NCBI GenBank assembly: GCA_039545335.1
Contig: BCIN01000003.1
Span: 2,179,060-2,243,059, forward strand
Direction: 5' to 3'
DNA length: 64,000 bases
DNA from: Kondoa subrosea
Taxonomy: Eukaryota
Below, piece by piece: positions 17,736 through 34,948 of this stretch. The notes under the pieces were generated by a model. The model was not told the origin of the DNA. It saw only the letters and a list, made by a program, of their open reading frames with translations, and searched no databases. The position numbers and the translations under genes were made by a program. Within the stretch, counting starts at the first letter, position 1, and every line of letters begins with the position of its first letter.

Positions 17736-18609
17736 ATGATGCTCACTCTGCTATACCTGCCTCTATTGGCCGCTCTGGCTGCTGCGACTGATCTCGTAGG
17801 ACGGATAGAAGCTGGTCAGAACCCTCTCAGTGCGTTGCTTCTGCCGCAAGTCGCTTACAGCTGATTGTAGTCGAGTACAGTTGCCTCGCAATTCCGCTTG
17901 AAGCCTGATACGCAAGTCTTGCTGGACAACGGCCTGAGTCGGAAAGCTCTTATAAAACCAGATGGTTCCTTCATATTGTGAGCAAATGAACAAATAGCTG
18001 CGCTGCCCGCTGATCTCTTTTCTTTTGGGTCACAGCCGAAACCTTCCAGCTGCAGATTACGTGCTCAGCGTGTCCAGCAAAGACTACATCTTCCCAAACG
18101 TAGGCTTTGCTTCACCGTTGTTTATCATTGATTGAGATGTTCTCGGACAGTACCTCGTTTCGATAAGTGCTGCAGATCAGGGCGTCCTCATTCGTCCTCA
18201 CGAGCACAATCTCCTCCCAGCAATCGATGGACCTCTGCTTCCTCATCCCCTTCTCATTCAACCAAGAGCGATACCGGAATACGTCGAAGTCAAGAAACCT
18301 TTTGATGCTATCGCTATGATCAAATCAAACCCTCTGATATTGATGATGGTATTGGGAGGTGGGATGATGTTTGGGCTTCCCAAATTGATGGGAATGCTGG
18401 ATCCAGAAGCATTGGAGGAATTGAGGTCAGCATAGGAAGTAGCATAGCGATTTAGGTTCGCTAAAGCGTAATTTCTTCTTGACAGGCATAATCAAGCGCA
18501 AATGCACAAATCGCTTGGAAGTATACAGCAAGGCGATGTGAGCGGGTTCAAGAAGATTCTGAATCCGGAACCGTATCAAGCTCCAAGTGTAGAGAAGAAG
18601 TTGCAATAG
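17736..18609 (+). CDS. EMC7: ER membrane protein complex subunit 7-like
   Basis: Signal peptide, DGSF...NLP..DYVLSV, C-terminal KSNPLILMMVLGGGMMFGLPKLMGMLDPEALEE. Confidence 0.8.
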
Positions 18610-18838
18610 TATCATAATGCAATGTTAGCTTAGCATGACGAGTCTCCGGGGCTGTCTGTTATCCGGATGAAGTCTCGGAGAAATTGTCTACAGCATCTAT
18701 TCTAGCAATGCAACCCAAAAGAAACCCTTCTAAAAGCTAAAAAAGAAAAAAAAGAGAAATGACAAGCAACTATGTACAAGTTAAACAGAGAGGCGCTATT
18801 CCCTCTGCATATAAGAGTACAACCCTTTTTGATGTGCT

Positions 18839-19463
18839 TCATGAGTGGAAAGAACGCTTGAATCGATGCTGAGTAATTGGCGTGCAGACGTTATCAGCCG
18901 ATTTCAGTAGCTTCCAACCTCTTGAGCAACTTTTGACAACGCATCGTCCCATTAGACACTAGACAGCAGTACTTGAGCCGACAATAAACAGGCACAAAGA
19001 AAGCAGCCTAACCTCCGTGTCTTGAACACCTGGTGCAGATCGACAGTTGTTACCTTGTTATCCTCTAGATTTTAGTACGGCGCAAGAGAAGTGCATGAAA
19101 GCAAAGAAAAGGGTTCGTACCACATCGACCACACTAGAATAAGAGGGAAGAAGAAGAGTCAGCAATCACAAAGACCTATGAAGAGCAACACACATGAGTA
19201 GTTTGCCTGCTTAGATCAACACACTACAGATTAGCATTAGCACAGCGATTCAGACGAAAGAAAAGGAAAAAAAAGCCTACTTTGTAATCTTCGATTGACA
19301 TTGCCCGACATGCTGTCATCGGAATAGGACACTCAATGTCAGATCCACGAATAGCTGGAAGCAACAATGAGTAAAGTAAAGAGGTGAAAGTAGAATTATG
19401 CTACTTACCAATAACTTGAGCAACCAGAGCAAAAAGAAGAGCGAATACAGTGAACGACCGCAT
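18839..19463 (-). CDS. Small secreted cysteine-rich protein, CPL1/PriA-like domain (~110 aa, 6 exons)
   Basis: Hand-spliced: MRSFTVFALLFALVAQVIA-IRGSDIECPIPMTACRAMSIEDYKCVDLSRQTTHCGRCGNNCRSAPGVQDTECLMGRCVVKSCSRGWKLLKSADNVCTPITQHRFKRSFHS. Needs a 13-nt exon (19121-19133) and one AAG acceptor. Confidence 0.78.
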
Positions 19464-19997
19464 TGTAGCTTATGTAATGTAAAGTTTTGTTGGAAGAAAT
19501 AAAAGAGTGTAAATGAGTTGGATTTTAATGATGAGGAAAGTATAGAGTTGGACTGATGTGTGTTGAAAAAGCCCGGAGATTGCTTGATGACTTTGCTGAA
19601 AGAAGGAATGCAACTTATATAGCCAACGAGCGGAATGCAGATCCACAACAAGGAATGCAAAATCAACAGTGCTAATTGGTTGCAATGCAAATCATAGCAC
19701 CGCTTCAAGTATGCTGAAAAAACAACAACAAAGAACTCTTGACTTGAAGGTATCTGTCTGCCCTCTGAATTGGGTGACAAAAGAAGGAAGAAGGGCGAGC
19801 AAGACACAAGATAGCCTCCTCGATATAATTCTGTCTTTAATCGAGTTGTTGCTATTGATGAGGTGCTTTCGAGCGATAGGTCGAGTAAGAGCATATGGTA
19901 TAGTGCGTCAAGAGCTCAAAAGAGCATTGATAGAAGCTTCAGAGGGGATTCGAGATTGAAAGTGAAACATATTCGTGTTGTTTGCAAAGAGCCAAAC

Positions 19998-21168
19998 ATG
20001 AGCGTCGCGCCTTCAATGAGCAATGGCTTGACGAGCAATACATCAAGACCAGTAGTAGTACCAGGAGCTTCAACTTCGAATGCAACAGCGAGCACAGCGG
20101 GACTAGGACAAGCATTGACTGGTGAAGCAAGAACAGCAGCAGAATTGGCTGGAAGACCTATTGTCAGACATCCTGTGTCGAATACGGTATGCCTCCAGAG
20201 CACGCAGAGATCGCAAGCTGAGACGTTCGATGCTAGATTGTGGTCAACACTTGTTTGCTTGAAATCTTGCTCAAAGAGGTCTTGACCTGATGTGATGCTC
20301 CATTGGGTATACAGGTCAGGTCAGTCCTCTGCATGGTGCTATAACTTCAACGAGAGCTGAATGTGTCTATGCCGTGCAGAAAGGCAATCCTCTTCTCACG
20401 CATGTTCGCAATGTCGGCTGGGAGTATGGCGATATCGTACCAGACTATCAAGTAGGAGCTACTACAGGCGTCCTCTATCTCAGGTACGCAGACCGGGCTG
20501 CGCTTACTGCGATGCTGACTTGGGTGATAGCATTCGATATCATCGACTTCATCCAGAATACGTACATACCCGTATACAGAAGCTCGGTTCAGCTTATCAT
20601 CTCCGAGTTCTTCTTGTCATGTGCGACGTCGAAGATCATCAAGCAACGATCCGCGAATTAACAAAGGTCAGCGCCCTGATCTTTCAGCTTCCCACAAAGT
20701 TTACTTAACAAATTAAGCAGATGGCTATTATCAACAACCTGACCATTATGGTCGCATGGTCCAATCAGGAAGCTGGGCGATATCTAGAGCTATACAAGTC
20801 TTTCGAACGCAAAGGTCCAGACCTCATCAAAGAACGTGTCGACAAGGATTATATGTCTCAGATGAACGCTGTTTTGACTTCTGTGCGAGGTGTGAATAAG
20901 ACAGATGTTCTCACTTTGACAACCAATTTCGGAGTGAGTGCCATTTCTTATGTTTTTAAACCAGTAAATGTTGATTGACCGACTGCAGTCGCTGAAACGG
21001 ATTATGAATGCGACACCTGATGAATTATCTTCGTGTCCTGGACTAGGAGAGAAGAAGGTGAAGAGATTGAGGGAAGCTTTCTCTCAGCCTTTCGCTGTGT
21101 CATCCTCAAGTAAACGCAAAAGTACTGCTCAGAAACGTGGTGAAGAAGGAGCTACTGCTTTGAATTGA
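19998..21168 (+). CDS. RAD10: ERCC1/Rad10/Swi10 excision-repair endonuclease subunit
   Basis: QKGNPLLTHVRNVGWEYGDIVPDY, YHRLHPEY, WSNQEAGRYLELYK, HhH motifs VRGVNKTD and CPGLGEKKVKRL. Confidence 0.95.
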
Positions 21169-21264
21169 ACAGATGTGATAACAAGACTGCACAAATAGTG
21201 TAAGTATAATTGCAAGGAAACGAAATGTGACGCGTTTTATGAACGCGAATATAAAGTCTCCAGA

Positions 21265-21284
21265 AGATTGCCTCGAGGCAATCT
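21265..21284. promoter_or_regulatory. Perfect 20-bp palindrome AGATTGCCTCGAGGCAATCT upstream of the Tudor-like gene (left arm)
   Basis: The sequence equals its own reverse complement; an identical copy lies at 31556-31575. Function is inferred only. Confidence 0.55.
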
Positions 21285-21398
21285 AAAGAAAAAGCTCAAG
21301 CCCTTCTCTGGCGTGGCTGTTTGTGTGTCACCGAATCTCTCTTTCTTTCTCTTCCACTACCATCCATCTCACTCAAACTCACTCGCAAAGAACAAATC

Positions 21399-21735
21399 AT
21401 GTCACACAACGATTCTTCACCTGATTCAAGCTTCGAGCTTCACAAAGGAGATCATGTCGAGTATCACGTAAGTCAACTCTTCTTTCCGTGGTCGCATTCA
21501 GCTTACTTGACACTTGACACAGGCTGTAGCAAACAATGTCTCGCATGGAGTTGTGGTTGATGTAGATGAAGAGGCTCACAAAGTCAAAGTCAAGTGAGTT
21601 CTCACTACTCGTGCGAGAGTTTAAAGTGGGAACTCATGGTCACCGTGCAGAAACGACAACACTCACAAAGTCTCATCTGTTGGCGAAGACAAAGTTATGG
21701 GCGTTATGGAAAAGGGACAGAAGGATCAAAAGTGA
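21399..21735 (+). CDS. Small HVA1/DUF2945 Tudor-like protein, copy 1 (74 aa, 3 exons)
   Basis: Exons 21399-21467, 21523-21593 and 21651-21735 give MSHNDSSPDSSFELHKGDHVEYHAVANNVSHGVVVDVDEEAHKVKVKNDNTHKVSSVGEDKVMGVMEKGQKDQK. The KGDxVxY...GxV...NxNTxK pattern resembles HVA1 Tudor domains. Confidence 0.75.
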
Positions 21736-21841
21736 CCGCAGCATCATGAAAATATTGTAGCAATGGAATGAGTAGACAGTAGTAAGAGGAAAAGGAACAA
21801 CATTGCATGCATATAGATGATCTGAACTCTTCAATCTCGAC

Positions 21842-22953
21842 TCAAGCTTTTCCGAACAGCAACTTTGCATCTTCAGGTCGGTGATGACCAGCAGTGAAGA
21901 TCGCTTGCTCTTTAGCGAATGCCACACCGCTCAAAAGAGGAGAGCTAGCGACCAGAATGTCGAAGGCTTCTTTGAGCTCGTGATGAGTTGTTTCCTTGGG
22001 TACAGAGTGTTCAGGAACGTGAGATAGGTCAAGCAAGTCCTTCTCTTCTTGTTTGACATCCAAAGAAGCGTGATGGCCAGCTGAACAAATAGCTTCTCTT
22101 CGAGCTAATTCAAAAGGAGTCAGGTGCTTGGCAGGCTTGAGCAACAAGTCGAGAGCTTCTTTAGGATTATGTGCTTGCGTTTCTTTCGGTACAGCATGTT
22201 CTGGAACAGCAGCTAGATCGAGCATCGCTTGCTCTTCGGTCTTGACATCGAGCGAAGCATGATGACCAGAGGAAACGACAGCTTGTCTTCTTGCTTTCTC
22301 GTGTTCAGAAAGATGAGCTGGCTTGTGAACCAAGATATCAAGCGCTTCCTTCAATTCGTGGGGTTGACTTGACTTAGGAACATCGTGCTCGGGAATATTG
22401 GCAATAGCGAGAAGATCCGCTTCCGAGGACAGAGACGATCTAGAAGACCGGTGAGAAGAAGTAGAAGTTGCAGAGCGAGACGACGACGCAGAAGAGCGAC
22501 GGCGCGCACTGAACACAGCCGCAGTCTCGAGCTTGATTTCGCGAAGGCCGTCTTTGATCTATATTACGATCAGACCCTTCCCTTCTGGTATAGTAGAAGT
22601 ACTGACCTTATGCATCAACGCTGGTTTAGTCTTCATATCATGGCTTTGAACGGTCTTGTTCTTGAGCGACGCAGGCTTGATGTATTCAAGAGGGACGTCA
22701 GAGTATTCTGCTTGAGCTTGTGAAGTCTACGAGAAGCTTAAGATCGAGCAATCTAGCTGTTAGACAGACTTACCTCGCCTCCGCTCGAACTCAAGTCAGA
22801 TCCATTGTGATAAGCCATACTAATCTCGCGCTTCAAAGGATTTCCAGGACAGAGAATATCGTCGAACGAAGCCTGCTTGGGTTCTAGAACAGCAGGAGAT
22901 TTAACGGTTTCGATGGAGTTAGAGCTGGCAGAGCGAGAAACTGGAATGAACAT
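21842..22953 (-). CDS. His-rich triple-repeat protein of unknown function, copy 1 (3 exons, ~336 aa)
   Basis: Starts MFIPVSRS; two canonical introns, Ser/Arg linker, then three 63-aa repeats. Intact in both repeat arms. Confidence 0.85.
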
Positions 22954-23418
22954 GATACTGAAGAAAGAGAAGTGATCGATAAGTTATAAGCAAAGAGCGA
23001 AGAGTCTGACCAGCAGATATGAAGAAGTTGAATGAAGAGGAGAGAAGGAAGAGAGCGAAAAGCAGGGTTTTGTCAAGAGATTGGCGATGCTTGCAGTGCC
23101 TCATATTTGCCATCGAGAGTCCATCTATGAAGCCGATGAGACATAATAGGAAGCTGGCTACAGCTAAGCAATACAGGCTCCAAAGACGCCAAAAGACCCC
23201 ACCCTCAGCGTTTCAAGTTCAAGAAGCAGGATTTCCTTCACAATTCAAACAAACAGTACTTGGCTTGAAAGATCGCATGAGCACACTGACAGACAGGCAG
23301 TACGAGCATTGACGCGTCGCAGGCAACGCCGTCGGGGAAGAAGCAGTGCGTTGTTTATTTGCGTTTATTTTATCGGTTTTGCTTCTTCACCCACACCGTG
23401 ATACCCTCAAAGGCGATC

Positions 23419-26400
23419 ATGGCTCGCGAAGTGATTGATCTGGACACCAGCGATTCGGAGAACGAGCAAAATGATAGAGTTAGGCAATGGGCAGCAAAAG
23501 TGCAACCTCCTTCTCAAGAGCAAGATGAGATTATTCCAGTGTCGAGACCTATGCCAACACACATCAACTACGCTTTCAAAGCACCTGCTCCAGCCAAAGC
23601 GACCAATATCTTCATGCCAACCAAACCTCGAGCTCAAGATACATACTACAAACATAGCTTAGGCGGAGGTCCTGGACCGCAGTACAATGGCGTCAAGGTT
23701 GAGAAGCCTAATGCAAGTACATACAACACTTTACCTGGTTACAGACCGCCTGCAAATGTTTTTAAACCTCCGACTCCTATTGATGTACCTCGACAAGAAC
23801 CGACGCGTCCTCTTCCTTCTGCTTACGATGCTCTCGATCCCGCTCAGGCTCATATGCGAGTCGAAGATGCTGAGAAGGAATTGAGAGAATTGGTCGAAAG
23901 TATGATTGATATGACTGGCGTGGATATGAGTGAAGAAATGCCAGATGAGCTGTCCTGCAAGCTACTCGCGCATCAGGTATGTCAAAGTCGTATAAGAGAG
24001 CTCTCTTTGCTGATTTCTTGAAACAGGTCCAAGGTATTCAATGGCTCAAGGTATGTCACACGCTGGTCAACTCTGACTGTACTGACTTGGTCATGCAGAG
24101 TCGGGAGACTGGAAAGAATAGAGGCGGAATCTTGGCCGATGATGTGCGTGATTCGTTTGTCGTGGCCTCAGCCTAGCTGACTGGGAATGTGCAGATGGGT
24201 CTAGGCAAAGTAAGATCCAAAACACTGATTTAATTCATGGTTGAAAGTAGTCGCAGACGATTCAATCTATTGGTCTAATGTTGGCCAAGAAACCAGAGAA
24301 GAAGCCTAAGACCACTCTTATCGTGGTTCCTTTGGCGCTGAAAGAACAATGGCGAGCTGAGATTGAAGCAAAGACAAAGTCTGGATCACTCTCTGTTCAT
24401 GTGCATCATGGAACAAAGCGAAGCAAAGGTGACTCTGCTCTTAAGTCGCGGTCTGAACAGCTTTAACAAATTCAGCAGATCCTGCTAAGCTCATGCGATA
24501 TGATGTACATTTGTCTAACAATTGATGTAATTGATCTGACGAGTCACTTGTTAGGTCGTTATTACTACATACGATGTGGTCGCTTCCGAATGGGTTGCAC
24601 CACCTAAGGCAAAGAAAGGCAAAGAGAACGTTCCAGCGGGTCAATCAGATGACTCAGGATCTGACTCGGAGGATTCACTGATGAAGAAGGTCAAGCGTAA
24701 AGCAACGAAAAAGAAGGAATTGGGTCCAATCTTCGAAGCCAAATTTCATAGGATCATTCTCGGTGCGTGCAATCTCTTTTTTGACGAGCAATCCTAATCT
24801 TTGGCTCAGACGAAGCTCATACCATCAAAGGTCGGAACACGAATCGAGCTAAAGCCTGTTGTGAGATATATGCAGAATATCGTTGGTGGTGCGTCACATT
24901 TGGTCAAAATGTGCAATAGCTCACTCTCTTGCCAGTCTGACAGGTACACCCATCCAGAATAGCGTATGTCCTATGCTTTTTGCGCCGTCGCAGTTCCTAA
25001 GCACAATATATTCAGGTCGAGGATCTCTTCTCGCTCTTCAAGTTTTTGGGAAGCATAGCAAAACCTTTTCATGAATATTCGTATTTCAAGTTGAAGATTA
25101 TGGACCCGCTCAAGAAAGGCCACGGTGCAATTACGATGGAGCGCCTACAAACTATCCTCAAAGCTTTGCTTTTGCGCCGGGCCAAGACTCATAAAGTTGA
25201 TGGGAAAGCCATCTTGGAGCTTCCAGCTCGCAACATTCATCTCGTCAAGACTAAGTTTCTCGATGCGTGAGTATCGATTATAAATTAGCGCAGAGCTGAC
25301 CAACCCAACAGGGATGAAGAAGCATTCTATAAAGCTCTTAATGACAAGATGCAAATCAGCTTCAACAAATTCCTTCGTGCTGGTACAGTTATGGACTCTA
25401 TAGTGCAAGGTAGGTAGGAGAGCCAGCCTGATTATTTGTTTTCCGGCTGATCTGCCATACCAACAAGTCCTGGTCCTTTTGCTACGTCTGAGACAAGGTA
25501 TTTAACTTGAGAAATTCGAAGCAGTATTCTGAGTGCTATTTCTAGCTTGCAATCATCCTCGCCTGGTGACTAAGGGTCAAGACTCGGATTCACTTGAGCG
25601 CTTGCCGGGAGCAAGCAACGCTATAACATCAAAGCCAGACAAGGACGATGTCGATGATCTCGCAGATGCTCTAGGCGGTCTTGGAGTATCTAAGCAGACT
25701 ATTTGCGCCATTTGTCAAGTTGACACAAGAGGGTCAGACATTTGTGATCGGTGCGTTCTTCGAAATGGAGCTGCATCTTTAAGCTGATTCATCGCCTGCG
25801 GAGTGATAGATGTGAAGAAGATAACGATAGATTCGCTTCTATGAGCATGTCAACTAAAATCCGGAAGATTCTGCGAATTCTTGTATGTCAATGTCTCTTC
25901 TTACTTGTATATCTGTTCAGTATGTCATAGGAGGATATCAGAGAGGAGAACCCGAAGCGCAAGACAATTGTAGGCCATCTTGTATTGCTCGGTATTGATC
26001 CTGATAATCTTTTCCCCAACAGATCTTCAGCCAGTTTATTTCGTTCTTCGAGCTCCTCGAACCTTTCCTCAAGAAGTCGAAGATCAAATATGTCAAATGT
26101 GCGTTGCTTCGAGCCAATGTGTAAGTGGCGCTGATGTGCGATACAGACATTGGAAGCATGCCAAAGTCAGCTCCGCGCCATCTGTAGTATGTATGTACTG
26201 AGATCTGATGGCGGTGGACAGTGACAAGCGAGAGCAAGCTCTTGACCGAATCAAAAACGATGACACTTGCACCGTTATTCTGGTTTCGCTAAAATGTGGT
26301 TCACTCGGTCTCAACTTAGTAGCTTGTTCCAGAGTGATTATCGTCGACCTATGGTCCGTTCATGCATCATTTTAAAGCCCAAAAACTGTTAATCATTCCC

Positions 26401-26859
26401 TTCGATCAGGTGGAATCCGGTCAGTACTGATCAAGCTTTCGATCTTATCAATTCTAATCATCTTGTGTAGAGCATTGAGAATCAGGGCATCGATAGAGCG
26501 CATAGATTTGGTCAGAAGGAGGATGTCGAGATCTATAAGATCGTGAGTAAAGCGTCCTAAATCATGAGCCTTGAAATTCAATTTCAGGGACTTCCGACAG
26601 ACAATTGAAGGCACTATTGAAGATCGTCTGCTGACTCTGCAAGATCAGAAAATGCAAATCGCCAATGCTGCCCTTGGCGATGATGGGTCAGCGAAACTCA
26701 ATAAAGTAAGCCGTCACAAGCTGAGTAATTGCCTCTCGAGCTCACCTATCTGTCTGGCAGCTTTCATTAAAAGATATCATGTTCTTATTCGTGCGTCAGT
26801 CTATAAGCGCGCTGTTACATGACTAATAATTGCACCAGAGAGGTGACGGTGCGAAGTGA
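23419..26859 (+). CDS. SNF2-family helicase with RING-like insert (Uls1/Ris1/Rad5-16-like)
   Basis: GGILADDMGLGKT, RIILDEAH, LTGTPIQN, LLRLRQACNHP, CAIC...ICDRC, IFSQF, LNLVACSRVI, WWNP, QGIDRAHRFGQ. SIM-like VIDL at the N-terminus. Confidence 0.92.
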
Positions 26860-26938
26860 AGATACCATCTGTTCTCTACTATTACATTCATTGCTATGCC
26901 AAGCCCAAAATAGATCTTATATGTCAATTACAAATGTA

Positions 26939-28438
26939 TTACGAATGTACTGATCTCGACTTATGCACCGCTTCATGAATTGGATCTTCGCAGTATGGTG
27001 AATCTTTTCGCTCGGAAGGTGTCCAGTCGGATCCTTTTGCGCTCCCTTTTTCATCCCATCTGCCCTTTTCGACATCGACTGATCGTTCTGAAGACGCTAT
27101 AGATGCCGTTTTCCTAACAGGCTCCGCAGGTGCTTGAGTACTGAGATCTCTTGTGCCCCATCCGGTCTAGGAAGTTTCAGAACAGGTGCATCGTAATCAA
27201 TAAAGAAAACTTACCTCATGCAAAGTGAACAAAGCATACACCTTCATCACTGCAAAATAATAACCAAACAAGAGCCAAACGGGCACGTAGATAATATCTT
27301 GAGGTCTTTTGATAAGATGTGGAACGAGTTTAGCTGTTCGAGTGAGGAGGAGCCAGACGAGGTAAGATCCAAGAATGTTGCCAGCCGAGAGATGATAGGC
27401 TGTCGGATCAGATGCGTAGCGTTTGCTTCTTGTACAAAGGTAGATGACAAGACAAGGCCCTATAAGAAGAGTGATTGGGTTGAGGAATTTGTCAATCATT
27501 GTATAAGTTGTATAAGGGTGTCGAGCCCAAAGGTGTCGTTCCTTAAAAATGCTTCTGATATCACTTCTCCAAGTATTCCTTGTCCAGCGAAGCACTTGCT
27601 TGAGAAATTGCCAATTAGGTTTCATTGTACTTTGTAAACATGCTTCTTTACAAACTTGCACAGTAGTGTTCCAGCCATGTGATACCATCCATCGAGTTAG
27701 GAACTTATCGTCGCCAGAATTGAGGTGATATTTGCCGCGCCAATAGTCGTGTATAAATCCATCTATGAACGCTGGATCTTTGAGGATGATTGTGCGGTAA
27801 GCTGCTGTTCTGCCACTGAGGCAAGGGATACCGCCATCTATGTGAGTTGAAGCTGAGATTTCGATGTTGCGAACAGAGAGACGAAATGCAGCCAACACTT
27901 CCCAAACCGTCATCTTTTCCCCGACAGCTTTGACTACCTGGGAAGTGCCTACTCCGCCCATTGCCTGATCTTCAAAGCAAGCCAACACGCATGGAAGGAG
28001 AGTAGCTGGCCAGAGAGCATCGTCATCAGCGAAAACAATGATATCTGTATTGGTGTTCTTGATGCCTTCGACCATTTGAACCCGCTTGTTGGGTGTGGGA
28101 ACAGACAACACCCTTATCCTACCTCCTCCTGGCCCATCGACTTGTTCAGCTAGACGTTCCAGCGCGTGATGCATTTCGGTTGAAGTGACAATGATGATTT
28201 CCTTTGGATTACCCGCCAGCCAGGTTTTTGCAGCATGAGAGAAGTTGTCGTCGGCATCAATGGTCGGTACAATGATTGTGACATCATCTTGAGCTAGATA
28301 AGTCGGTTTTTCTGGAATTGGAATAGGTCGATATGCTGCTGCTGCTGCCAATCTGAGGAAGAAGAAGATATAACGGTATGCGCCAACGATGCCAAGAGGA
28401 ATGAAGAAGGGCAAGTTGTCCGAAGTAAGGTATAGCAT
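26939..28438 (-). CDS. Processive family-2 glycosyltransferase (Cps1-like polysaccharide synthase)
   Basis: IIVPTID, VFADDD, CLSGRTAAYRT, SGDDKFLTRW, QVLRWTRN (QxxRW), TM helices and TGWGTR after a single intron (27167-27214). Confidence 0.9.
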
Positions 28439-28594
28439 AGTGTGAGCAAGTACAAAGGTGAAGATTTTGTTATTCAATGTATTCAATGGTCATGGTAGTC
28501 AGAATGAAAATTGTTGAATCAACTTCTCTCTTCTGTTTCAGCAGATGGTATTGGAGAAGATGGATAGTAGGAATGTCTTGCTGTAGCTGTGAAA

Positions 28595-29445
28595 TTAGGC
28601 TGTAAGTGCCGCTGCAAGAGTGATGGTATCCTCGATTTCCGAAGCTTTTATCCAGACTCTGTAAAAAGAGAATCAAGCTTGCGAATTTCGCACGCACTGA
28701 GACACTTACCTGCCATTCACACCAACAGCTATCTCGAAAGGAAACTTTGCGCCTAGATCTGGGAGAAGACCAGAGTCGCTGGAAAGCAACCTGCGAAAGA
28801 CTATTAGTGATGATTGGATCAGAGAGATGTTGCCATACTCTCGACATCGTGAAAGCTCTAGATGCTTCAATACCATACCACCGGTCAATTCGCCCATTCC
28901 TTGAGCTTTCTGCGTCGATTGATCCACGCATTCGATTTCCGGTTCAGCAAAGGAGAAAGCCTGCGAAACCCTGGCGTAGACCACAGCTCCGATCTGAAGA
29001 TATTCGATGAGTGCAATTCATGTCATCAGGACTCAACGAACCTTAAGATTTGGCTTGGAACGCTTAGTAGCACCTTCAAAGGCTAAAGCATCCAACGCAG
29101 CATACTGCGAGGACCCGATATCGACTCGATAGCCTTCAGCATGCCTTGCAGTTATGATGCCAACCACTAGCTCTCCGACAGCAGGGGCATACTGTCATGA
29201 TATATTTCAGCCTGTAGAATCTTGGTCTTGTACCTTGAACGAACTCTGCGACTGTGTCCTTCAATCCAGTAGCCTTTGACAGGTCCATGCTTCGTTCTGG
29301 ATTCCTGCAAACCCAATAGGCCAGCTTTCGAAGCGCTTGCACTGATTTTTCCATTGCTTTGATTTGATGCAATACCAGGCCCCAATTTCAGGGAAACGAC
29401 CTGATCGACGCTCACAGAGTCGCCGGGAAGTACGAAGGACGCCAT
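28595..29445 (-). CDS. RRP40: Exosome complex subunit Rrp40
   Basis: VLPGD, LKLGPG, YRVDIG, LAFEGATKRSKPNL, VYARV, EPEIEC, FEIAVGVNGRVWI. Confidence 0.93.
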
Positions 29446-29882
29446 TTTGCGTGTCTTGATCTATTGGCTGTTTTCAATTGAAAGGCTCTATCTCGTTTGC
29501 TCGAAGTCGCTCTTCCGTCGCATCGTGTTCCCTCCTTGCTTATCTGCGCTCTCTTCTCTCACTCTCTCACTCCGTCCTTTACTGTCTGTTAATGCTTCCA
29601 GGCTATGCCTCGAGTGAATCTTCTGGCAAAGCGCAAAGCGAACTTTAATAGACAAACAGCGATTGCTTTAAGTCGTAGCTGCATTATCCTGCCTGGAGTT
29701 ATATCGTAGGCAGGCTCTTCAGCGCAATCATGAGGCAATGCAAGCATCGCCAATCTCTCGACAAAACCCTGCTTTTCATTCTCTCTTCCTTCTCTCCTCT
29801 TCATTTAACTTCTTCATATCTGCTGGTCAGACTCTTCGCTCTTTGCTTATAACTTATCGATCACTTCTCTTTCTTCAGTATC

Positions 29883-30991
29883 ATGTTCATTCCAGTTTCT
29901 CGCTCTGCCAACTCTAACTCCATCGAAACCGTTAAATCTCCTGCTGTTCTAGAACCCAAGCAGGCTTCGTTCGACGATATTCTCTGTCCTGGAAATCCTT
30001 TGAAGCGCGAGATTAGTATGGCTTATCACAATGGATCTGACTTGAGTTCGAGCGGAGGCGAGGTAAGTCTGTCTAACAGCTAGATTGCTCGATCTTAAGC
30101 TTCTCGTAGACTTCACAAGCTCAAGCAGAATACTCTGACGTCCCTCTTGAATACATCAAGCCTGCTTTGCTCAAGAACAAGACCGTTCACAGCCATGACA
30201 TAAAGACTAAATCAGCGTTGATGCATAAGGTTGGTCCTTCTTCTATTCCAGCGGACAAGCTACTGATTGTACTATAGATCAAAGACGGCCTTCGCGAAAT
30301 CAAGCTCGAAACTGCGGCTGTGTTCAGTGCTCGTCGTCGCCGCTCTTCTGCGTCGTCGTCTCGCTCTGCAACTTCTTCTCGCCGCCCTTCTAAGTCATCT
30401 CTGTCCTCGGAAGCGGATCTTCTCGCTATTGCCAATATTCCCGAGCACGATGTTCCTGAGTCAAGTCGACCACACGAATTGAAGGAAGCGCTTGATATCT
30501 TGGTTCACAAGCCAGCTCATCTTTCTGAACACGAGAAAGCAAGAAGACAAGCTGTCGTTTCCTCTGGTCATCATGCTTCGCTCGATGTCAAGACCGAAGA
30601 GCAAGCGATGCTCGATCTAGCTGCTGTTCCAGAACATGCTGTACCGAAAGAAACGCAAGCACATAATCCTAAAGAAGCTCTCGACTTGTTGCTCAAGCCT
30701 GCCAAGCACCTGACTCCTTTTGAATTAGCTCGAAGAGAAGCTATTTGTTCAGCTGGCCATCACGCTTCTTTGGATGTCAAACAAGAACAGAAAGAGTTGC
30801 TCGAATTATCTCACATTCCTGAACACTCTGTACCCAAGGAAACAACTCATCACGAGCTCAAAGAAGCCTTCGACATTCTGGTNGCNAGCTCTCCTCTTTT
30901 GAGCGGTGTGGCATTCGCTAAAGAGCAAGCGATCTTCACTGCTGGTCATCACCGACCTGAAGATGCAAAGTTGCTGTTCGGAAAAGCTTGA
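29883..30991 (+). CDS. His-rich triple-repeat protein of unknown function, copy 2 (337 aa)
   Basis: Exons 29883-30062, 30110-30229 and 30278-30991 splice in frame. Two N bases at 30883 and 30886. Confidence 0.85.
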
Positions 30992-31104
30992 GTCGAGATT
31001 GAAGAGTTCAGATCATCTATATGCATGCAATGTTGTTCCTTTTCCTCTTACTACTCTCTGCCCTCTACTCATTCCATTGCTACAATATTTTCATGATGCT
31101 GCGG

Positions 31105-31441
31105 TCACTTTTGATCCTTCTGTCCCTCTTCCATAACGCCCATAACTTTGTCTTCGCCAACAGATGAGACTTTGTGAGTGTCGTCGTTTCTGCACGGTGA
31201 CCATGAGTTACCACTTTAAACTCTCGCACGAGTAGTGAGAACTCACTTGACTTTGACTTTGTGAGCCTCTTCATCTACATCAACCACAACTCCATGCGAG
31301 ACATTGTTTGCTACAGCCTGTGTCAAGTGTCAAGTAAGCTGAATGCGACCACGGAAAGAAGAGTTGACCTACGTGATACTTGACATGATCTCCTTTGTGA
31401 AGCTCGAAGCTTGAATCAGGTGAAGAATCGTTGTGTGACAT
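31105..31441 (-). CDS. Small HVA1/DUF2945 Tudor-like protein, copy 2
   Basis: Same three-exon structure as 21399-21735 with few substitutions (for example HVKYH for HVEYH). Confidence 0.75.
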
Positions 31442-31555
31442 GATTTGCTCTTTGCGAATGAGTTTGAGTGAGATGGATGGTAGTGGAAGAGAAAGAAAGA
31501 GAGATTCGGTGACACACAGAGAGCCACACCAGAGAAGGGCTTGAGCTTTTTCTTT

Positions 31556-31575
31556 AGATTGCCTCGAGGCAATCT
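31556..31575. promoter_or_regulatory. Perfect 20-bp palindrome (right-arm copy)
   Basis: AGATTGCCTCGAGGCAATCT, identical to 21265-21284. Confidence 0.55.
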
Positions 31576-31673
31576 TCTGGAGACTTGATATTCGCGTTCA
31601 ACAAAACGCGTCATACTCCTCCAGCTGGCTGCTATACTCACACTATTTGTACAGTCCTAATATCACATCTGTT

Positions 31674-31730
31674 TAATTCAAAGCAGTAGCTGCTTCTTCG
31701 CGCGTTTCTGAGCAGTACCTTTGCGTTTGC
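31674..31730 (-). pseudogene. Decayed fragment of the RAD10 3' coding end
   Basis: Reverse complement GCAAACGCAAAGGTACTGCTCAGAAACGCGCGAAGAAGCAGCTACTGCTTTGAATT matches 21110-21166 with substitutions and a 1-nt gap. Confidence 0.8.
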
Positions 31731-31898
31731 GAGAGAATTAAAAAAAAAGAGGAGAAATGAAGAGGACGAAGGCATAACAAGCAACAAACAGAACGAAAGG
31801 GTAATCTGGATCAAACTGAAAGTCACAAAGAAGGAAAAGAAATGCATGTGACTAATACAGATTCTGGAGATCCAAGTCCCTTGTAAGGCCGCATGTCT

Positions 31899-33495
31899 TT
31901 ATTCTGCAGGAAACAGATTGCCTTTTAGCATATCTATTCAGATTCAAAAGATACATGCATACCTTCCATATCATCGAAACCATGCTCAATCTTGTAAAGA
32001 GCGCGATCAGGGCAGCACATTGAAGTTAAAAAAATAGCGCACAAGGTAATTAGCAGCGAGTTCTTCATTGCGATCACATGCGAGGAAAGCCTATTAATTG
32101 ACGTTCAGCAACAACGCCGCTACATCTATACGAGCAGTCTGACCTGAATACATAATTGCCTGTTCGTAGAAAGAATGAAGATAAGATCAAGGCCCAACTG
32201 TTTTCTCGCCACGAACCTATCGAATCCCATAGCTTCTAATCTCTGGATCGCAGCTCCTTCCTCTTCAGTAACTTGTATCGCATTGGGGGGCATTCCACCT
32301 TCGCCTCCCATTTGACCCATAAGGTCTTCCATGGCATCATCTCCACCAGCTTCACCACCAGCCATAGCAGCTTCTAAATCTTGTCCTTGCAGCAATCTTG
32401 CGAAAATTCCAGGGTTGGCATTGATCAAAGCCAAAAGTTGAGGATTGGCTTGACCTAATTGAGCTAAGAAAGCAGGTAACAAAGTTGGATTTTGCTGAAC
32501 CATTTGTCGTAAAGAGTTGAAAGCTGGGTTTGAAGCCAAAGCGGAGATTTCACTCATCATAGCTGGAGTCATTTCGGCTCCTCCTTGGGCTCCTGCTGCA
32601 TTTGCAGTTGGAGTAGCTGCTGGTTGTCGCGCAGCTGCATCAAAAAGATTGCCTGGTCGAGCAGGTGCAGCGGGTGTGTTAGGTGCAGCATTGGCTGAAG
32701 GGGTAGCTGGAACACCGCCTGAAGGGTTTGAAGCAGGTGGATTTGGTGCATTAGCGGCTTGCATAAGATGTGCAGGGATACCCTGTCGTTCCATCGCATT
32801 TGAAATCAGATTAAGCTGAGTTCTTTCACACCATAACTGACATTCATCAAATATTCGACAGCTCGATCTGGATTGTTGAAACTTGCTCTCAGCGCACGAG
32901 TAACCTGCTCGCGAGGGAAACCCATGGAGAGCATTTCGTTCATTGCAGTCTCGAGCTGACTTCCAGTCGCGAAGCTGGAAGCACCATCTGCCAAACTTGT
33001 GGTAGAAGCTGGTTGAGCTGGAGCTTCTGATGTAGGTACTTGTACAGATTCAGAGGATGCAGATGCGGACACAGCAGGTGTTATGTTAGCTGAAGAGGCA
33101 GGCTGACTTGTAGCTGGCGCAGAAGTGCTACTAGTAGCAGCAGCAGAAGCAGGAGCAGGCGCAGCTTTAGGCTATCGGATTGTGAGATCACTGATACACT
33201 TGCAGATTGAGCAGACTAACCTTTGAGACCATTACAACTAAGAAATCCTTCTCCTTGAAGTTCAAGCTCGCAATCGTTCGTGCATCGTCCAACACTTTGC
33301 CTATTCAAGTGGAAGCCTGTGAGTACTGGGCCGCAGTCAAGCTGTACACGTACCTGAATAGATCAACTTCTGATTCTCGACTGGAAACGACTTTGCCTCG
33401 AGAATCTTGCTTTTGAGCTGTGCAACAGTTTCCTCGTCGGCACATTCTAGCGCGAAGGTGCCCTGCGATAGAGTCTTGAGCGTGATCTTGACCAT
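31899..33495 (-). CDS. RAD23: UV excision repair protein Rad23 (UBL-UBA-XPC-binding-UBA)
   Basis: MVKITLKTL...[62 protein letters not shown]. Confidence 0.96.
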
Positions 33496-33733
33496 TCGGT
33501 GTTCGTAGTTTTTTATGAAGAAACGCTGACGACGATTTTTGTAGAGCCTTGTTACATTGATCTGCCACTCACATTTGGGCTACAGAGTCGCTTGTGCTGG
33601 TGTCTTCACTGCTCTTTAGCCGAGACCTCGCGTGTTCCGTTCGGCCTGGTGTATTACTCATCTCTATTTCTAAGCTCGCGAATCTATTTCTCTTACACCT
33701 CTTCTTCTCTCACTCGGCGTGTTATTGTGTGAC

Positions 33734-34867
33734 ATGACGGCAAGAAAAGTTGTTGTAGCGACCGGCTTCACTTCTGGCATTGTTCGTGCTACGCTCTCGC
33801 TTGACAGCCCAATGCATGCTCAAGCCTGACTTGTAGGGTTTCGAAGCCGTCAAACATCTATTAGCCCAGTCTCAACCATACCGTTTCATCCTCGGCTGCC
33901 GTGATCCAGCGAGCGTAAAGCGGACGTATGAAGGTGTCGATTATGACAAAGAAGCCAATTCGTTCACCTATCTGCCTTTGGAGCTGTCCGATCTCAAAGG
34001 CGTGAGAACTTTCGCTCAAGAAACCCTTAAGGAGACAGACAAGATCGATTACCTGTACTTGAATGCCGGTTTGAATAAATCAGCAAATGAGGATGGGATC
34101 AACGGTTCGAAGTGGAACGAGAGCTACCTTGTCAATCATCTGTGTGAGCTACCTGACCTTTATACCAATTCTGCAGCTTGATACTGCTTGTAGCTCAACA
34201 CTACCTCATACATCTGTTGAAAGAGAAGCTTATTTCGTCCAAAACTCGAATTACAATTGTCTCTTCTGGAGCTATTCGCATGGTCGAAGACGTCGACTCG
34301 CTCGAAATGATCCTCAAAGCGCACTCGAACGCTGAATTGATGCAAATCTACCCTGCTTCTAAATTCGTTCATTTGCTGGCTGCTCATTGGTGGAGACGGC
34401 AACTGCCTGAATGTACCGTTTTAGCTGTATCACCTGGCCTAGTTCCTGGCACTGGTCTGGTGAGCTGTCACTTAGGTATCACTGATCCTGACTTACGTAT
34501 CTAACGACAGGGTCGTCACACCGGCATGAGTATTCCAGATAATTTGCCAGATGCTAAATCAGTCAGCGAAGGTGCGCTTTCCGTTTCGATGCATTCACAA
34601 GCTGAGATCGCGATCAGGTGGTATGAGCGTCATAAAGGCAGCTTTCGTTGAAGAAAAGGATATTCCTCAAGACAAAGACAGAATCTTCTTCACCTCCTGG
34701 GGTGAATTGTAAGTGAAAGGGCTTCATTACTTTCTGCAGTAGGTGATTATGTATCTTTTCTTAGCTGGCCTCGCGAAAACATCGAAAAGACTTGTGACAT
34801 AGAATTGCAAGACAAATGGTGTCCTTCTTTGGAGCAGATCGAGCAGGATGAGAAGCTCAATGTATAA
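33734..34867 (+). CDS. Short-chain dehydrogenase/reductase
   Basis: VVATGFTSGIG Rossmann motif, LYLNAG, YPASK (YxxxK), AVSPGLVPGT. Confidence 0.88.
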
Positions 34868-34948
34868 TTTACATTTCGCCTGTAATGCTGAAATAATCGG
34901 CGAATCGTATACAAAGATCTTAGATACTATCTGCAAGTCCGGTAACGC

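What the first reader, a model, noticed from the sequence alone, without database searches (positions are those of the whole stretch)
21110..31730. Two ~2 kb gene-containing inverted repeats enclosing a 6.6 kb cassette: candidate invertible (flip-flop) locus
Seen: 21110-23104 and 29730-31730 are reverse complements. Each holds two intact genes, and together they enclose an SNF2-RING helicase, a processive GT2 and RRP40 (23105-29729). No transposase, LTR or recombinase gene is present. Established: recombination between inverted repeats inverts the enclosed segment, and kb-scale gene-containing IRs mediate mating-type inversion in methylotrophic yeasts. Inference: this may be an undescribed invertible segment at a non-MAT locus; the inverted geometry avoids deleting the normally essential RRP40. 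Caveat: crossovers inside the arms leave each gene's own promoter attached, so inversion could be neutral and the IR may simply provide extra dosage.
Basis: partly seen in the sequence, partly recalled or inferred. Interest (0 to 1): 0.85.

Follow-up and report, generated by a model that had tools for sequence, protein, structure and literature searches.

The report
Gene-carrying inverted repeat around three genes
A fungal chromosome carries two mirror-image 2-kb copies of a two-gene block on either side of three housekeeping genes; the copies have been exchanging sequence, so the middle piece could occasionally flip, but nothing points to a genetic switch and similar structures are already known in yeasts.

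Summary
Positions 21132-23125 and 29710-31702 form a 2-kb inverted repeat, about 97% identical in its core. It encloses a 6.6-kb spacer holding an SNF2-family helicase, a GT2 glycosyltransferase and RRP40, and it lies between RAD10 and RAD23. Each arm carries the same two intact, intron-containing genes: a 74-aa ORF and a 337/338-aa protein of a tiny uncharacterised family. Contig depth from two runs of one sample puts the shared arm sequence at about 2x the flanks and each arm-specific variant at about 1x. That argues for two genuine copies and against a collapsed mis-assembly. The arms are a mosaic: tracts of 158-315 bp are 100% identical, while other patches are 12-29% divergent. The mosaic cuts across coding constraint, because one intron differs at 14 of 48 sites and the next intron at 0 of 47. 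This is the signature of an old inverted duplication that arm-to-arm gene conversion keeps partly homogenising. Crossovers during such exchange would flip the spacer, but orientation could not be tested because every contig breaks inside the arms. No recombinase, transposase, mating-type gene, telomere or centromere-like sequence is nearby, and a flip would leave every promoter attached to its gene. The closest known cases are the Saccharomyces chrXIV 'flip/flop' region and the ORF-containing long inverted repeats of Candida albicans. Verdict: a new member of a known kind, of modest interest.

The parts
21132..23125 (.). Left arm of the inverted repeat
   Evidence: Identity decays gradually at both edges: about 85% in 21100-21299, and homology is lost after about 23125.
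29710..31702 (.). Right arm of the inverted repeat (reverse complement of the left arm)
   Evidence: It holds Ns at 30883 and 30886, exactly at sites where the arms differ (left 21947 and 21950).
23126..29709 (.). 6584-bp unique spacer, the candidate invertible segment
   Evidence: A single contig in each run (23001-29835 in X1, 23000-29836 in X2) spans it and runs about 125 nt into both arms. Its depth equals that of the flanks.
21399..21735 (+). Gene A, left copy: 3 exons (21399-21467, 21523-21593, 21651-21735), 74 aa
   Evidence: Gene model. The separate exons gave no Pfam hit. The family is not established.
31105..31441 (-). Gene A, right copy: 3 exons, 74 aa, intact
   Evidence: It has 3 nonsynonymous and 0 synonymous differences from the left copy.
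21842..22953 (-). Gene B, left copy: 3 exons (22953-22774, 22726-22607, 22558-21842), 338 aa, with three internal repeats of about 60 aa
   Evidence: No Pfam family. One relative among 1876 candidates scored from a 5.8-billion-protein database, and 4 at E<=0.001 among 1.84 billion representatives, one of them spurious.
29883..30991 (+). Gene B, right copy: 3 exons (29883-30062, 30110-30229, 30278-30991), 337 aa, intact
   Evidence: Against the left copy it has 13 synonymous and 14 nonsynonymous differences, pN/pS 0.33, and indels of 6 and 3 nt that keep the frame.
22436..22670 (.). Island of old divergence: 29 substitutions and 2 indels in 235 nt, spanning exon 3, intron 2 and exon 2 of gene B
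   Evidence: Both versions of its core exist as separate 167-nt contigs (22534-22700 and 30136-30302), each at about 1x depth, in both runs.
20296..21168 (+). RAD10/ERCC1 (3' exons seen); the last 12 codons or so lie inside the left arm
   Evidence: Pfam Rad10 on three ORF pieces. The stop is at 21166-21168.
31665..31702 (-). Relic of the RAD10 3' coding end at the outer edge of the right arm, with a 1-nt deletion
   Evidence: Alignment columns 133-190, and the matching C-terminal residues in ORFs. It suggests the left arm is the original copy.
23419..27100 (+). SNF2-family helicase gene with many exons; the 3' end was not determined
   Evidence: ATG ORF from 23419. SNF2-rel_dom at 24251-24463 and 25001-25267, Helicase_C at 26202-26372, and RAD5 as the best solved relative.
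27197..28438 (-). GT2 glycosyltransferase, single large exon, 413 aa
   Evidence: Glyco_tranf_2_3 at E=7e-32. The Atlas clusters are fungal GT2 and bacterial hyaluronan-synthase-like.
28709..29445 (-). RRP40 exosome subunit (5' exons; the last exon or exons lie below 28709)
   Evidence: Rrp40_N, RRP40_S1 and KH_6. The ATG is at 29445.
31931..33579 (-). RAD23; its stop is about 230 nt outside the right arm
   Evidence: Ubiquitin, UBA and XPC-binding domains. The last exons were read from the frames, and the stop position is my inference.

Best explanation
This is an old inverted segmental duplication of a 2-kb, two-gene unit: a palindrome with a 6.6-kb spacer. The RAD10-side copy is probably the original. 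A copy that carried the last codons of RAD10 was inserted in reverse between RRP40 and RAD23. Since then, non-allelic homologous recombination between the arms has repeatedly copied stretches of one arm onto the other (gene conversion). Most of the arms are therefore identical or nearly so, while a few unconverted islands and the edges retain 12-29% divergence. When such an exchange resolves as a crossover, the spacer (SNF2 helicase, GT2, RRP40) flips. That would be a rare and passive by-product. It leaves every gene with its own promoter and is expected to be close to neutral, so this is not a regulated switch. Shown here: the repeat, two-copy depth, intact paralogues and the mosaic. Inferred: gene conversion as the cause of the mosaic, the polarity of the duplication, and the possibility of inversion.
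For: The repeat is real and unique in the window. Depth supports two copies: flanks and spacer are at 52-54 (X1) and 140-142 (X2), shared arm contigs at 80-122 (X1) and 244-288 (X2), and the arm-specific 167-nt variants at 77/63 (X1) and 132/152 (X2). The mosaic has identical tracts of 315, 254, 169 and 158 nt beside patches at 12-29% divergence. The spacing of the 54 core differences has CV 1.93 against 0.99 expected, reached by 0 of 20000 simulations, and the longest tract has P=0.0014. The mosaic is not explained by constraint: gene B intron 2 differs at 14 of 48 sites, while the other three introns differ at 2 of 159 (Fisher p=2e-8). Intron 1, the A-B intergenic region and part of the promoter all lie inside identical tracts. 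Identity decays toward both edges, as expected when conversion tracts rarely reach the ends. Both gene pairs are intact, with gene B at pN/pS 0.33 and in-frame indels. A RAD10-tail relic sits in the right arm. No recombinase, transposase or MAT domain was found in 0 of 169 ORFs scanned. There is no tRNA, no Rfam match, and no telomere repeat or satellite. The same mechanism is documented for the Saccharomyces FF region, whose authors also cite about 4% of conversions resolving as crossovers (PMC9731477 section 15).
Against: Only one genome is available, and it is probably a short-read assembly. An assembler can smooth isolated differences between repeat copies, which would exaggerate the identical tracts. 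The two Ns show the consensus was ambiguous at two variant sites. The window does keep many isolated inter-arm SNPs, which argues against wholesale smoothing but does not exclude it. The two runs come from one sample that may be the source of the assembly, so they are not independent. There is no cross-species tree of the arms, so concerted evolution is inferred from the mosaic alone. A diverged third paralogue elsewhere in the genome could have donated the divergent island, and I could not check this because no whole genome is held. No inversion was observed. The orientation of the spacer in the assembly cannot be verified from k=31 contigs, because both spacer ends join the same shared 359-nt contig.
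Confidence: 0.72

Rival explanations
1. It is a programmed invertible (flip-flop) switch. Inversion would be frequent or inducible and would change expression of the spacer or arm genes, as at the MAT loci of methylotrophic yeasts.
For: The geometry matches: 2-kb IRs around a 6.6-kb segment resemble the 8-kb MAT region of Pachysolen tannophilus flanked by 2-kb IRs (PMC6692504 passages). The arms recombine.
Against: No MAT-type, recombinase or transposase domain was found in 0 of 169 ORFs. The 64-kb window has no telomere repeat, satellite, AT-rich or repeat-rich region that could silence by position. Crossovers inside the arms leave each gene attached to its own promoter. The arms are only about 97% alike, with a longest perfect tract of 315 nt; from recall, that should depress recombination. 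The closest non-MAT analogue did not flip in about 53,800 mitoses and 950 meioses (PMC9731477 section 9).
Confidence: 0.03
2. It is a static inverted duplication with no exchange between the arms. On this view the patchy identity reflects uneven constraint, local mutation hot spots or assembly smoothing.
For: Coding exons are generally more alike than the outer intergenic part. A short-read assembler may collapse isolated differences. Ns sit at two variant sites.
Against: Neutral sites differ wildly over short distances: 29% in one intron against 0-1.8% in three others (p=2e-8), and 0.9% in the A-B intergenic region. Both versions of the divergent island are confirmed as separate 1x contigs, and the neighbouring shared pieces sit at 2x. 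The window keeps many isolated SNPs between the arms.
Confidence: 0.12
3. It is an assembly artefact: a single-copy segment, or two alleles of a heterozygous locus, wrongly placed twice.
For: The right arm contains Ns. Inverted-repeat artefacts of assemblers are documented (PMC6692504, Method Details passage). The runs may be the assembly's own data.
Against: Shared arm sequence is at about 2x and the arm-specific variants at about 1x flank depth. A single copy with alleles would give 1x and 0.5x. One contig per run carries the spacer with diverged inverted arm ends on both sides, and another contig crosses the outer left junction. The arms differ by indels and by islands of 12-29% divergence, and they are embedded in unique flanks. 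That is unlike the near-identical, contig-end artefacts described.
Confidence: 0.04
4. It is a mobile-element structure: a composite transposon or captured-gene cassette whose ends are the two arms.
For: Inverted terminal copies bracket a cassette.
Against: There is no transposase, integrase or reverse transcriptase domain and no direct repeats or LTRs. Depth indicates exactly two copies of the arm k-mers. The spacer holds conserved housekeeping genes, and the left arm overlaps the end of the RAD10 coding sequence.
Confidence: 0.02

Closest known systems
Saccharomyces chromosome XIV 'flip/flop' (FF) region (Salzberg et al. 2022, PMC9731477; abstract and sections 9, 10, 15 read)
   Same: It is a non-MAT locus. 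A kb-scale inverted repeat made of two intact gene pairs flanks a block of ordinary genes. The arms are homogenised by gene conversion during NAHR, and inversion is a by-product of crossover. One IR gene belongs to a fast-evolving, lineage-restricted family (Centroid there, gene B here). No recombinase is involved and no phenotype of orientation is known.
   Different: Here the arms are 2 kb rather than 4.2 kb and the spacer 6.6 kb rather than 24 kb. The arms are less homogenised (about 97%, with islands of 12-29% divergence). The host is probably a basidiomycete. There is no tRNA in the arms and no sign of a nearby centromere. Most importantly, the two orientations and cross-species conservation have not been shown here.
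Candida albicans long repeat sequences containing ORFs (Todd et al. 2019, PMC6591007; passages read)
   Same: These are paralogous, ORF-containing inverted repeats of 1.7-3.2 kb at 98-99.5% identity, with spacers of about 11 kb. Inversions of 4.1-102.6 kb have breakpoints in such repeats (8 of 9 in ORF-containing repeats) and are attributed to NAHR.
   Different: Those repeats were found through observed rearrangements (CNV, LOH, PCR-validated inversions) in a diploid ascomycete. Here no rearrangement is observed.
Flip/flop mating-type switching loci of methylotrophic and other budding yeasts (Ogataea, Komagataella, Pachysolen, Ascoidea; PMC6692504 passages, PMC5720833 abstract in the search listing)
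   Same: About 2-kb inverted repeats flank a segment of 8 kb to tens of kb that inverts by homologous recombination between the repeats.
   Different: Those segments carry MATa and MATalpha genes at their ends. They depend on a neighbouring centromere or telomere for orientation-specific silencing, and they are induced by starvation. None of these features is present here.
Recurrent IR-flanked inversion on the mammalian X chromosome, and sex-chromosome palindromes
   Same: The arms are kept alike by arm-to-arm gene conversion, with recurrent spacer inversion. Salzberg et al. name this as the same mechanism (section 15, citing Caceres et al.).
   Different: Those involve a very different scale and organisms. 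What I know of the palindromes beyond that citation is recalled and was not read here.

Membership tests
IR-flanked, gene-conversion-homogenised recurrent-inversion region (Saccharomyces FF type) | Two kb-scale copies in inverted orientation flanking a unique gene-bearing spacer | tested here: met
IR-flanked, gene-conversion-homogenised recurrent-inversion region (Saccharomyces FF type) | The arms are homogenised (concerted evolution) | tested here: met
   A within-genome mosaic of 0% and 12-29% divergent tracts that cuts across introns and exons. There is no cross-species arm tree, so this is the weaker form of the test.
IR-flanked, gene-conversion-homogenised recurrent-inversion region (Saccharomyces FF type) | Both orientations are found among strains or species | not testable with these tools
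   No contig bridges an arm. No whole genome or relatives are held. The metagenome relatives of the GT2 share no neighbouring gene (0 of 25 loci).
IR-flanked, gene-conversion-homogenised recurrent-inversion region (Saccharomyces FF type) | The IR consists of intact paralogous gene pairs | tested here: met
   Gene models for both copies of genes A and B, and pN/pS 0.33 for gene B.
Flip/flop mating-type switching locus | MAT genes lie at the ends of the invertible segment | tested here: not met
   Pfam names the spacer genes as SNF2, GT2 and RRP40. No homeodomain, HMG, alpha-box or pheromone-receptor domain was found in 0 of 169 ORFs. Short exons could have been missed.
Flip/flop mating-type switching locus | A silencing centromere or telomere lies next to one arm | tested here: not met
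   No telomere repeat (the motif is recalled and the true repeat of this organism is unknown) and no satellite. GC is flat at 0.41-0.50 and genes are dense on both sides.
Flip/flop mating-type switching locus | Inversion is induced by an environmental signal | not testable with these tools
   This needs cultures.
Site-specific recombinase inversion switch (FLP/FRT-like or inverton-like) | A dedicated recombinase gene in or beside the element | tested here: not met
   No recombinase or integrase domain in 0 of 169 ORFs.
Composite transposon / TIR element | A transposase and extra genomic copies | tested here: not met
   No transposase domain, and arm k-mers at about 2x only. The whole genome is not available for a copy search.

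The most novel reading that the evidence does not exclude
The 6.6-kb segment really does exist in both orientations, within populations or even within cultures of this (probably basidiomycete) fungus, and orientation matters. For example, it might change replication direction or timing, or transcriptional interference, for the RAD5-like SNF2 helicase and RRP40, which sit between the two excision-repair genes RAD10 and RAD23. On this reading the arms are retained by selection on the lineage-specific gene B. That would be an independent second case of the Saccharomyces FF/Centroid phenomenon, this time with a phenotype.
Probability: 0.04. Interest if true: 0.8.

Novelty: new member of a known kind. 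Interest (0 to 1): 0.3.

Why it matters
If the mosaic reading is right, this is a clean, compact example of concerted evolution between inverted paralogous gene pairs outside the ascomycete yeasts. It would also be a candidate site of recurrent, probably neutral, inversion. Such sites suppress recombination in heterozygotes and are routinely mis-oriented in short-read assemblies. Both matter for genetic mapping and for assembly quality control in this organism. It does not open a new mechanism. The practical value is a warning that the orientation of 23126-29709 in this assembly is unverified. There is also a small lead: gene B is a fast-evolving, lineage-restricted gene kept in two copies, which echoes the Centroid genes of Saccharomyces.

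Tried and rejected
1. The whole genome of the window is not held, so I could not search for a third paralogue or for other IRs in the genome.

2. Read-level orientation test. Only Logan contigs of two runs from one sample were available. Every contig ends inside the arms, so there is no orientation information. The first attempt failed on the two Ns. No RNA holder was listed, so there is nothing on expression.

3. Synteny in relatives. 25 metagenome loci encode GT2 relatives at 56-81% identity. Of 22 local tblastn queries, the 21 other than the GT2 (RAD10, genes A and B, SNF2, RRP40, RAD23, PCF11, SDR) hit 0 of 25 loci at E<=1e-4. The ancestral gene order could not be recovered.

4. Gene B function. 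There is no Pfam family and no usable Atlas hit. The AlphaFold model is poor (mean pLDDT 53, pTM 0.19): short helices separated by disorder. I did not run a fold search because the model is too weak.

5. Gene A family. The three exons are 23-27 aa each and gave nothing in Pfam at E<=10. I did not submit the spliced protein to external tools. A resemblance to the Hva1/DUF2945 small-protein family is only my recollection and is untested.

6. RING domain of the SNF2 gene. No profile detected it; I saw only CxxC motifs.

7. Rfam, tRNA, telomere motif and tandem repeats all gave nothing relevant.

8. This scan's earlier notes hold nothing for this genome or for gene B.

9. Literature on basidiomycete precedents. 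Two searches listed none. That is weak evidence of absence, because subscription journals are not covered.

Full report
**Observation**

The inverted repeat is real. The repeat finder on 18000-35000 gives three long inverted pairs (542 nt at 98%, 694 nt at 97%, 577 nt at 95%) and two weak edge pieces (80-81%). These are the only repeats of 60 nt or more in the whole 64-kb window, and there are no direct repeats.

A MAFFT alignment of the two arms places homology at about 21132-23125 and 29710-31702. Across 1985 aligned positions there are 88 substitutions, 20 gap columns and two Ns. The Ns, at 30883 and 30886, are the only ones in the window. The spacer is 23126-29709, or 6584 bp.

**Genes**

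In order these are:
- PCF11
- RAD10 (three exon pieces, stop at 21168)
- the left arm
- an SNF2-family gene (SNF2-rel_dom and Helicase_C)
- a GT2 glycosyltransferase (Glyco_tranf_2_3, E=7e-32)
- RRP40 (Rrp40_N, RRP40_S1, KH_6)
- the right arm
- RAD23 (ubiquitin, UBA, XPC-binding)
- a short-chain dehydrogenase

No profile found the RING finger. I saw only four CxxC motifs in one frame and RAD5 as the best solved relative of one exon.

The rest of the window is ordinary housekeeping DNA, including an MFS transporter, ATP sulfurylase/APS kinase, TPR, C2/SMP, an ABC transporter, ribulose-phosphate epimerase and ribosomal protein S7. None of the 169 ORFs scanned carries a transposase, integrase, recombinase or mating-type domain.

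There are no tRNAs, no Rfam matches in 19000-34000, no telomere-type repeat (the motif is recalled) and no satellite. GC is flat at 0.41-0.50. The organism is intron-rich and probably a basidiomycete: the best Atlas cluster for the GT2 is mostly Basidiomycota.

**The arm genes**

Each arm holds the same two convergent genes.

Gene A has three exons and encodes 74 aa. Both copies are intact, with three amino-acid differences and no synonymous ones. That is too few to interpret. Its family is not established, because the separate exons gave nothing in Pfam.

Gene B has three exons and encodes 338 aa in the left arm and 337 aa in the right. It contains three internal repeats of about 60 aa. Both copies are intact with GT..AG introns. 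The two indels between the copies are 6 and 3 nt, so they keep the frame. There are 13 synonymous and 14 nonsynonymous differences, giving pN/pS of 0.33. It therefore behaves as a real gene under constraint.

Gene B belongs to a very small family. It has one relative among 1876 candidates scored from a 5.8-billion-protein database. It has four hits at E<=0.001 among 1.84 billion representatives, one of which is a spurious perfect-repeat protein. There is no Pfam family and no usable Atlas hit. The structure model is poor, with mean pLDDT 53.

**Is it an assembly artefact?**

Two public runs from one sample hold the region, and that sample may be the source of the assembly. They are kept only as k=31 contigs. 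Laid on 18000-30882, they give these depths:
- Flanks and spacer: 52-54 in X1 and 140-142 in X2.
- Pieces shared by the two arms: 80-122 in X1 and 244-288 in X2, roughly double.
- The two alternative 167-nt versions of the most divergent patch (22534-22700 and 30136-30302): 77 and 63 in X1, 132 and 152 in X2, roughly single.

That is what two genuine copies give. One copy with two alleles would give 1x and 0.5x.

One contig per run covers the whole spacer and runs about 125 nt into each arm, and another crosses the outer left junction. The Ns fall exactly on two sites where the arms differ, so they look like consensus ambiguity.

The contigs give no information on orientation. Both ends of the spacer contig join the same shared 359-nt contig, so the graph fits either orientation, and I cannot verify the orientation in the assembly.

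**The mosaic**

The differences between the arms are strongly clustered. Tracts of 315, 254, 169 and 158 nt are perfectly identical. Other stretches are far more divergent:
- 21181-21253 has 19 substitutions in 73 nt.
- 22436-22670 has 29 substitutions and two indels in 235 nt.
- Both edges decay to about 85% identity and then to nothing.

In the core (21254-23054), the spacing of the 54 differences has a coefficient of variation of 1.93 against 0.99 under random placement. None of 20000 simulations reached that value, and the longest tract has P=0.0014.

Coding constraint does not explain this pattern. Intron 2 of gene B differs at 14 of 48 sites. Intron 1 differs at 0 of 47, the two introns of gene A at 1 of 55 and 1 of 57 (Fisher p=2e-8), and the A-B intergenic region at 1 of 106.

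A single duplication followed by independent decay would give roughly even divergence at neutral sites. The simplest reading is an old duplication, with neutral divergence of 25-30% where it was left untouched, that later gene-conversion tracts have overwritten in most places. Conversion rarely reaches the edges, which would explain their decay.

One caveat is that a short-read assembler may smooth isolated differences. However, the window keeps many isolated inter-arm SNPs. The divergent island and its 2x neighbours are also confirmed by the contigs.

**Polarity**

The outer end of the left arm overlaps the last 12 codons or so of RAD10. The right arm carries a copy of that tail with a 1-nt deletion, about 230 nt downstream of the RAD23 stop. 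This suggests the RAD10-side copy is the original. It also suggests the copy was inserted, inverted, between RRP40 and RAD23. This is inference, and I could not recover the ancestral order. The 25 metagenome loci with GT2 relatives (56-81% identity) share none of the neighbouring genes.

**Mechanism and function**

Arm-to-arm exchange is homologous recombination between inverted copies. A crossover outcome inverts the spacer. Because the breakpoints lie inside the arms, gene B keeps its roughly 170 nt of in-arm upstream sequence. SNF2 and RRP40 also keep their own upstream regions (22954-23418 and 29446-29882). No promoter-gene link changes.

With no recombinase, no MAT genes and no silencing neighbourhood, I see no basis for a switch. 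The most likely state is a passive palindrome that flips rarely, if at all. Its two gene copies may be kept for dosage or simply persist because conversion keeps repairing them.

RRP40 is essential in S. cerevisiae by my recollection. The point remains untested.

**Comparison with known systems**

The closest known system is the Saccharomyces chrXIV FF region (PMC9731477). I read the abstract and sections 9, 10 and 15. It has:
- 4.2-kb IRs made of two gene pairs flanking 24 kb;
- continual homogenisation by gene conversion during NAHR;
- recurrent re-inversion within species;
- no associated phenotype;
- no flip in about 53,800 mitoses and 950 meioses;
- one IR gene (Centroid) that is fast-evolving and lineage-restricted.

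Candida albicans has many ORF-containing long IRs. One example is about 3.2 kb at 99.5% identity (1.7 kb in the text), separated by about 11.5 kb. Inversions of 4.1-102.6 kb have breakpoints in such repeats (PMC6591007, passages).

MAT flip/flop loci share the geometry, for example the 8-kb region of Pachysolen with 2-kb IRs (PMC6692504, passages). They fail the membership test here, because this locus has no MAT genes and no silencer.

I treat it as an analogy, not as evidence.

**Verdict**

The kind is already known. It would be new only as a member in a probably basidiomycete genome, and two literature searches listed no basidiomycete precedent, which is weak evidence. I score interest at 0.3.

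Noticed in passing
window 20296-33579: Three DNA-repair genes lie within about 13 kb: RAD10/ERCC1, an SNF2-family gene whose best solved relative is RAD5 (the RAD5/RAD16/ULS1-type subfamily is my recollection), and RAD23. If the SNF2 gene were the RAD16 orthologue, this would be a small cluster of excision-repair genes.
   Followed up: partly
window 30883 and 30886: The only two Ns in the window sit at third-codon positions of gene B in the right arm. They fall exactly at sites where the two arms differ (left 21947 and 21950). This looks like consensus ambiguity from reads of both arms.
   Followed up: yes
window 18500-20000: A 1.5-kb stretch between an EMC7-like exon and RAD10 has lower GC (0.41-0.43) and strong purine excess on the + strand (AT skew 0.17-0.27, GC skew up to 0.25). 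It has no Pfam hit. It may be a promoter, a UTR or an unannotated gene.
   Followed up: no
window 21842-22953 and 29883-30991; P0001-P0004: Gene B and its three or four database relatives share a conserved C-terminal motif (AGHH, then a proline and an aspartate) and repeated units of about 60 aa. It is a tiny, uncharacterised and apparently fast-evolving family.
   Followed up: partly
window 29500-29999 and 23000-23499: There is strong pyrimidine/purine strand asymmetry at the inner ends of both arms (GC skew -0.31 and AT skew -0.26 at 29500-29999). This marks a CT-rich tract on the coding strand just upstream of gene B, in the divergent promoters shared with RRP40 and SNF2.
   Followed up: no
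L001-L025: Metagenome contigs encode GT2 relatives at 56-81% identity, but none of the window's neighbouring genes lies within up to 10 kb. The GT2-RRP40-SNF2 neighbourhood is therefore not widely conserved.
   Followed up: partly
P0005: A 745-aa database protein made of perfect ~72-aa repeats hits gene B weakly and gives many spurious Pfam matches. It is a low-complexity artefact, not a relative.
   Followed up: yes
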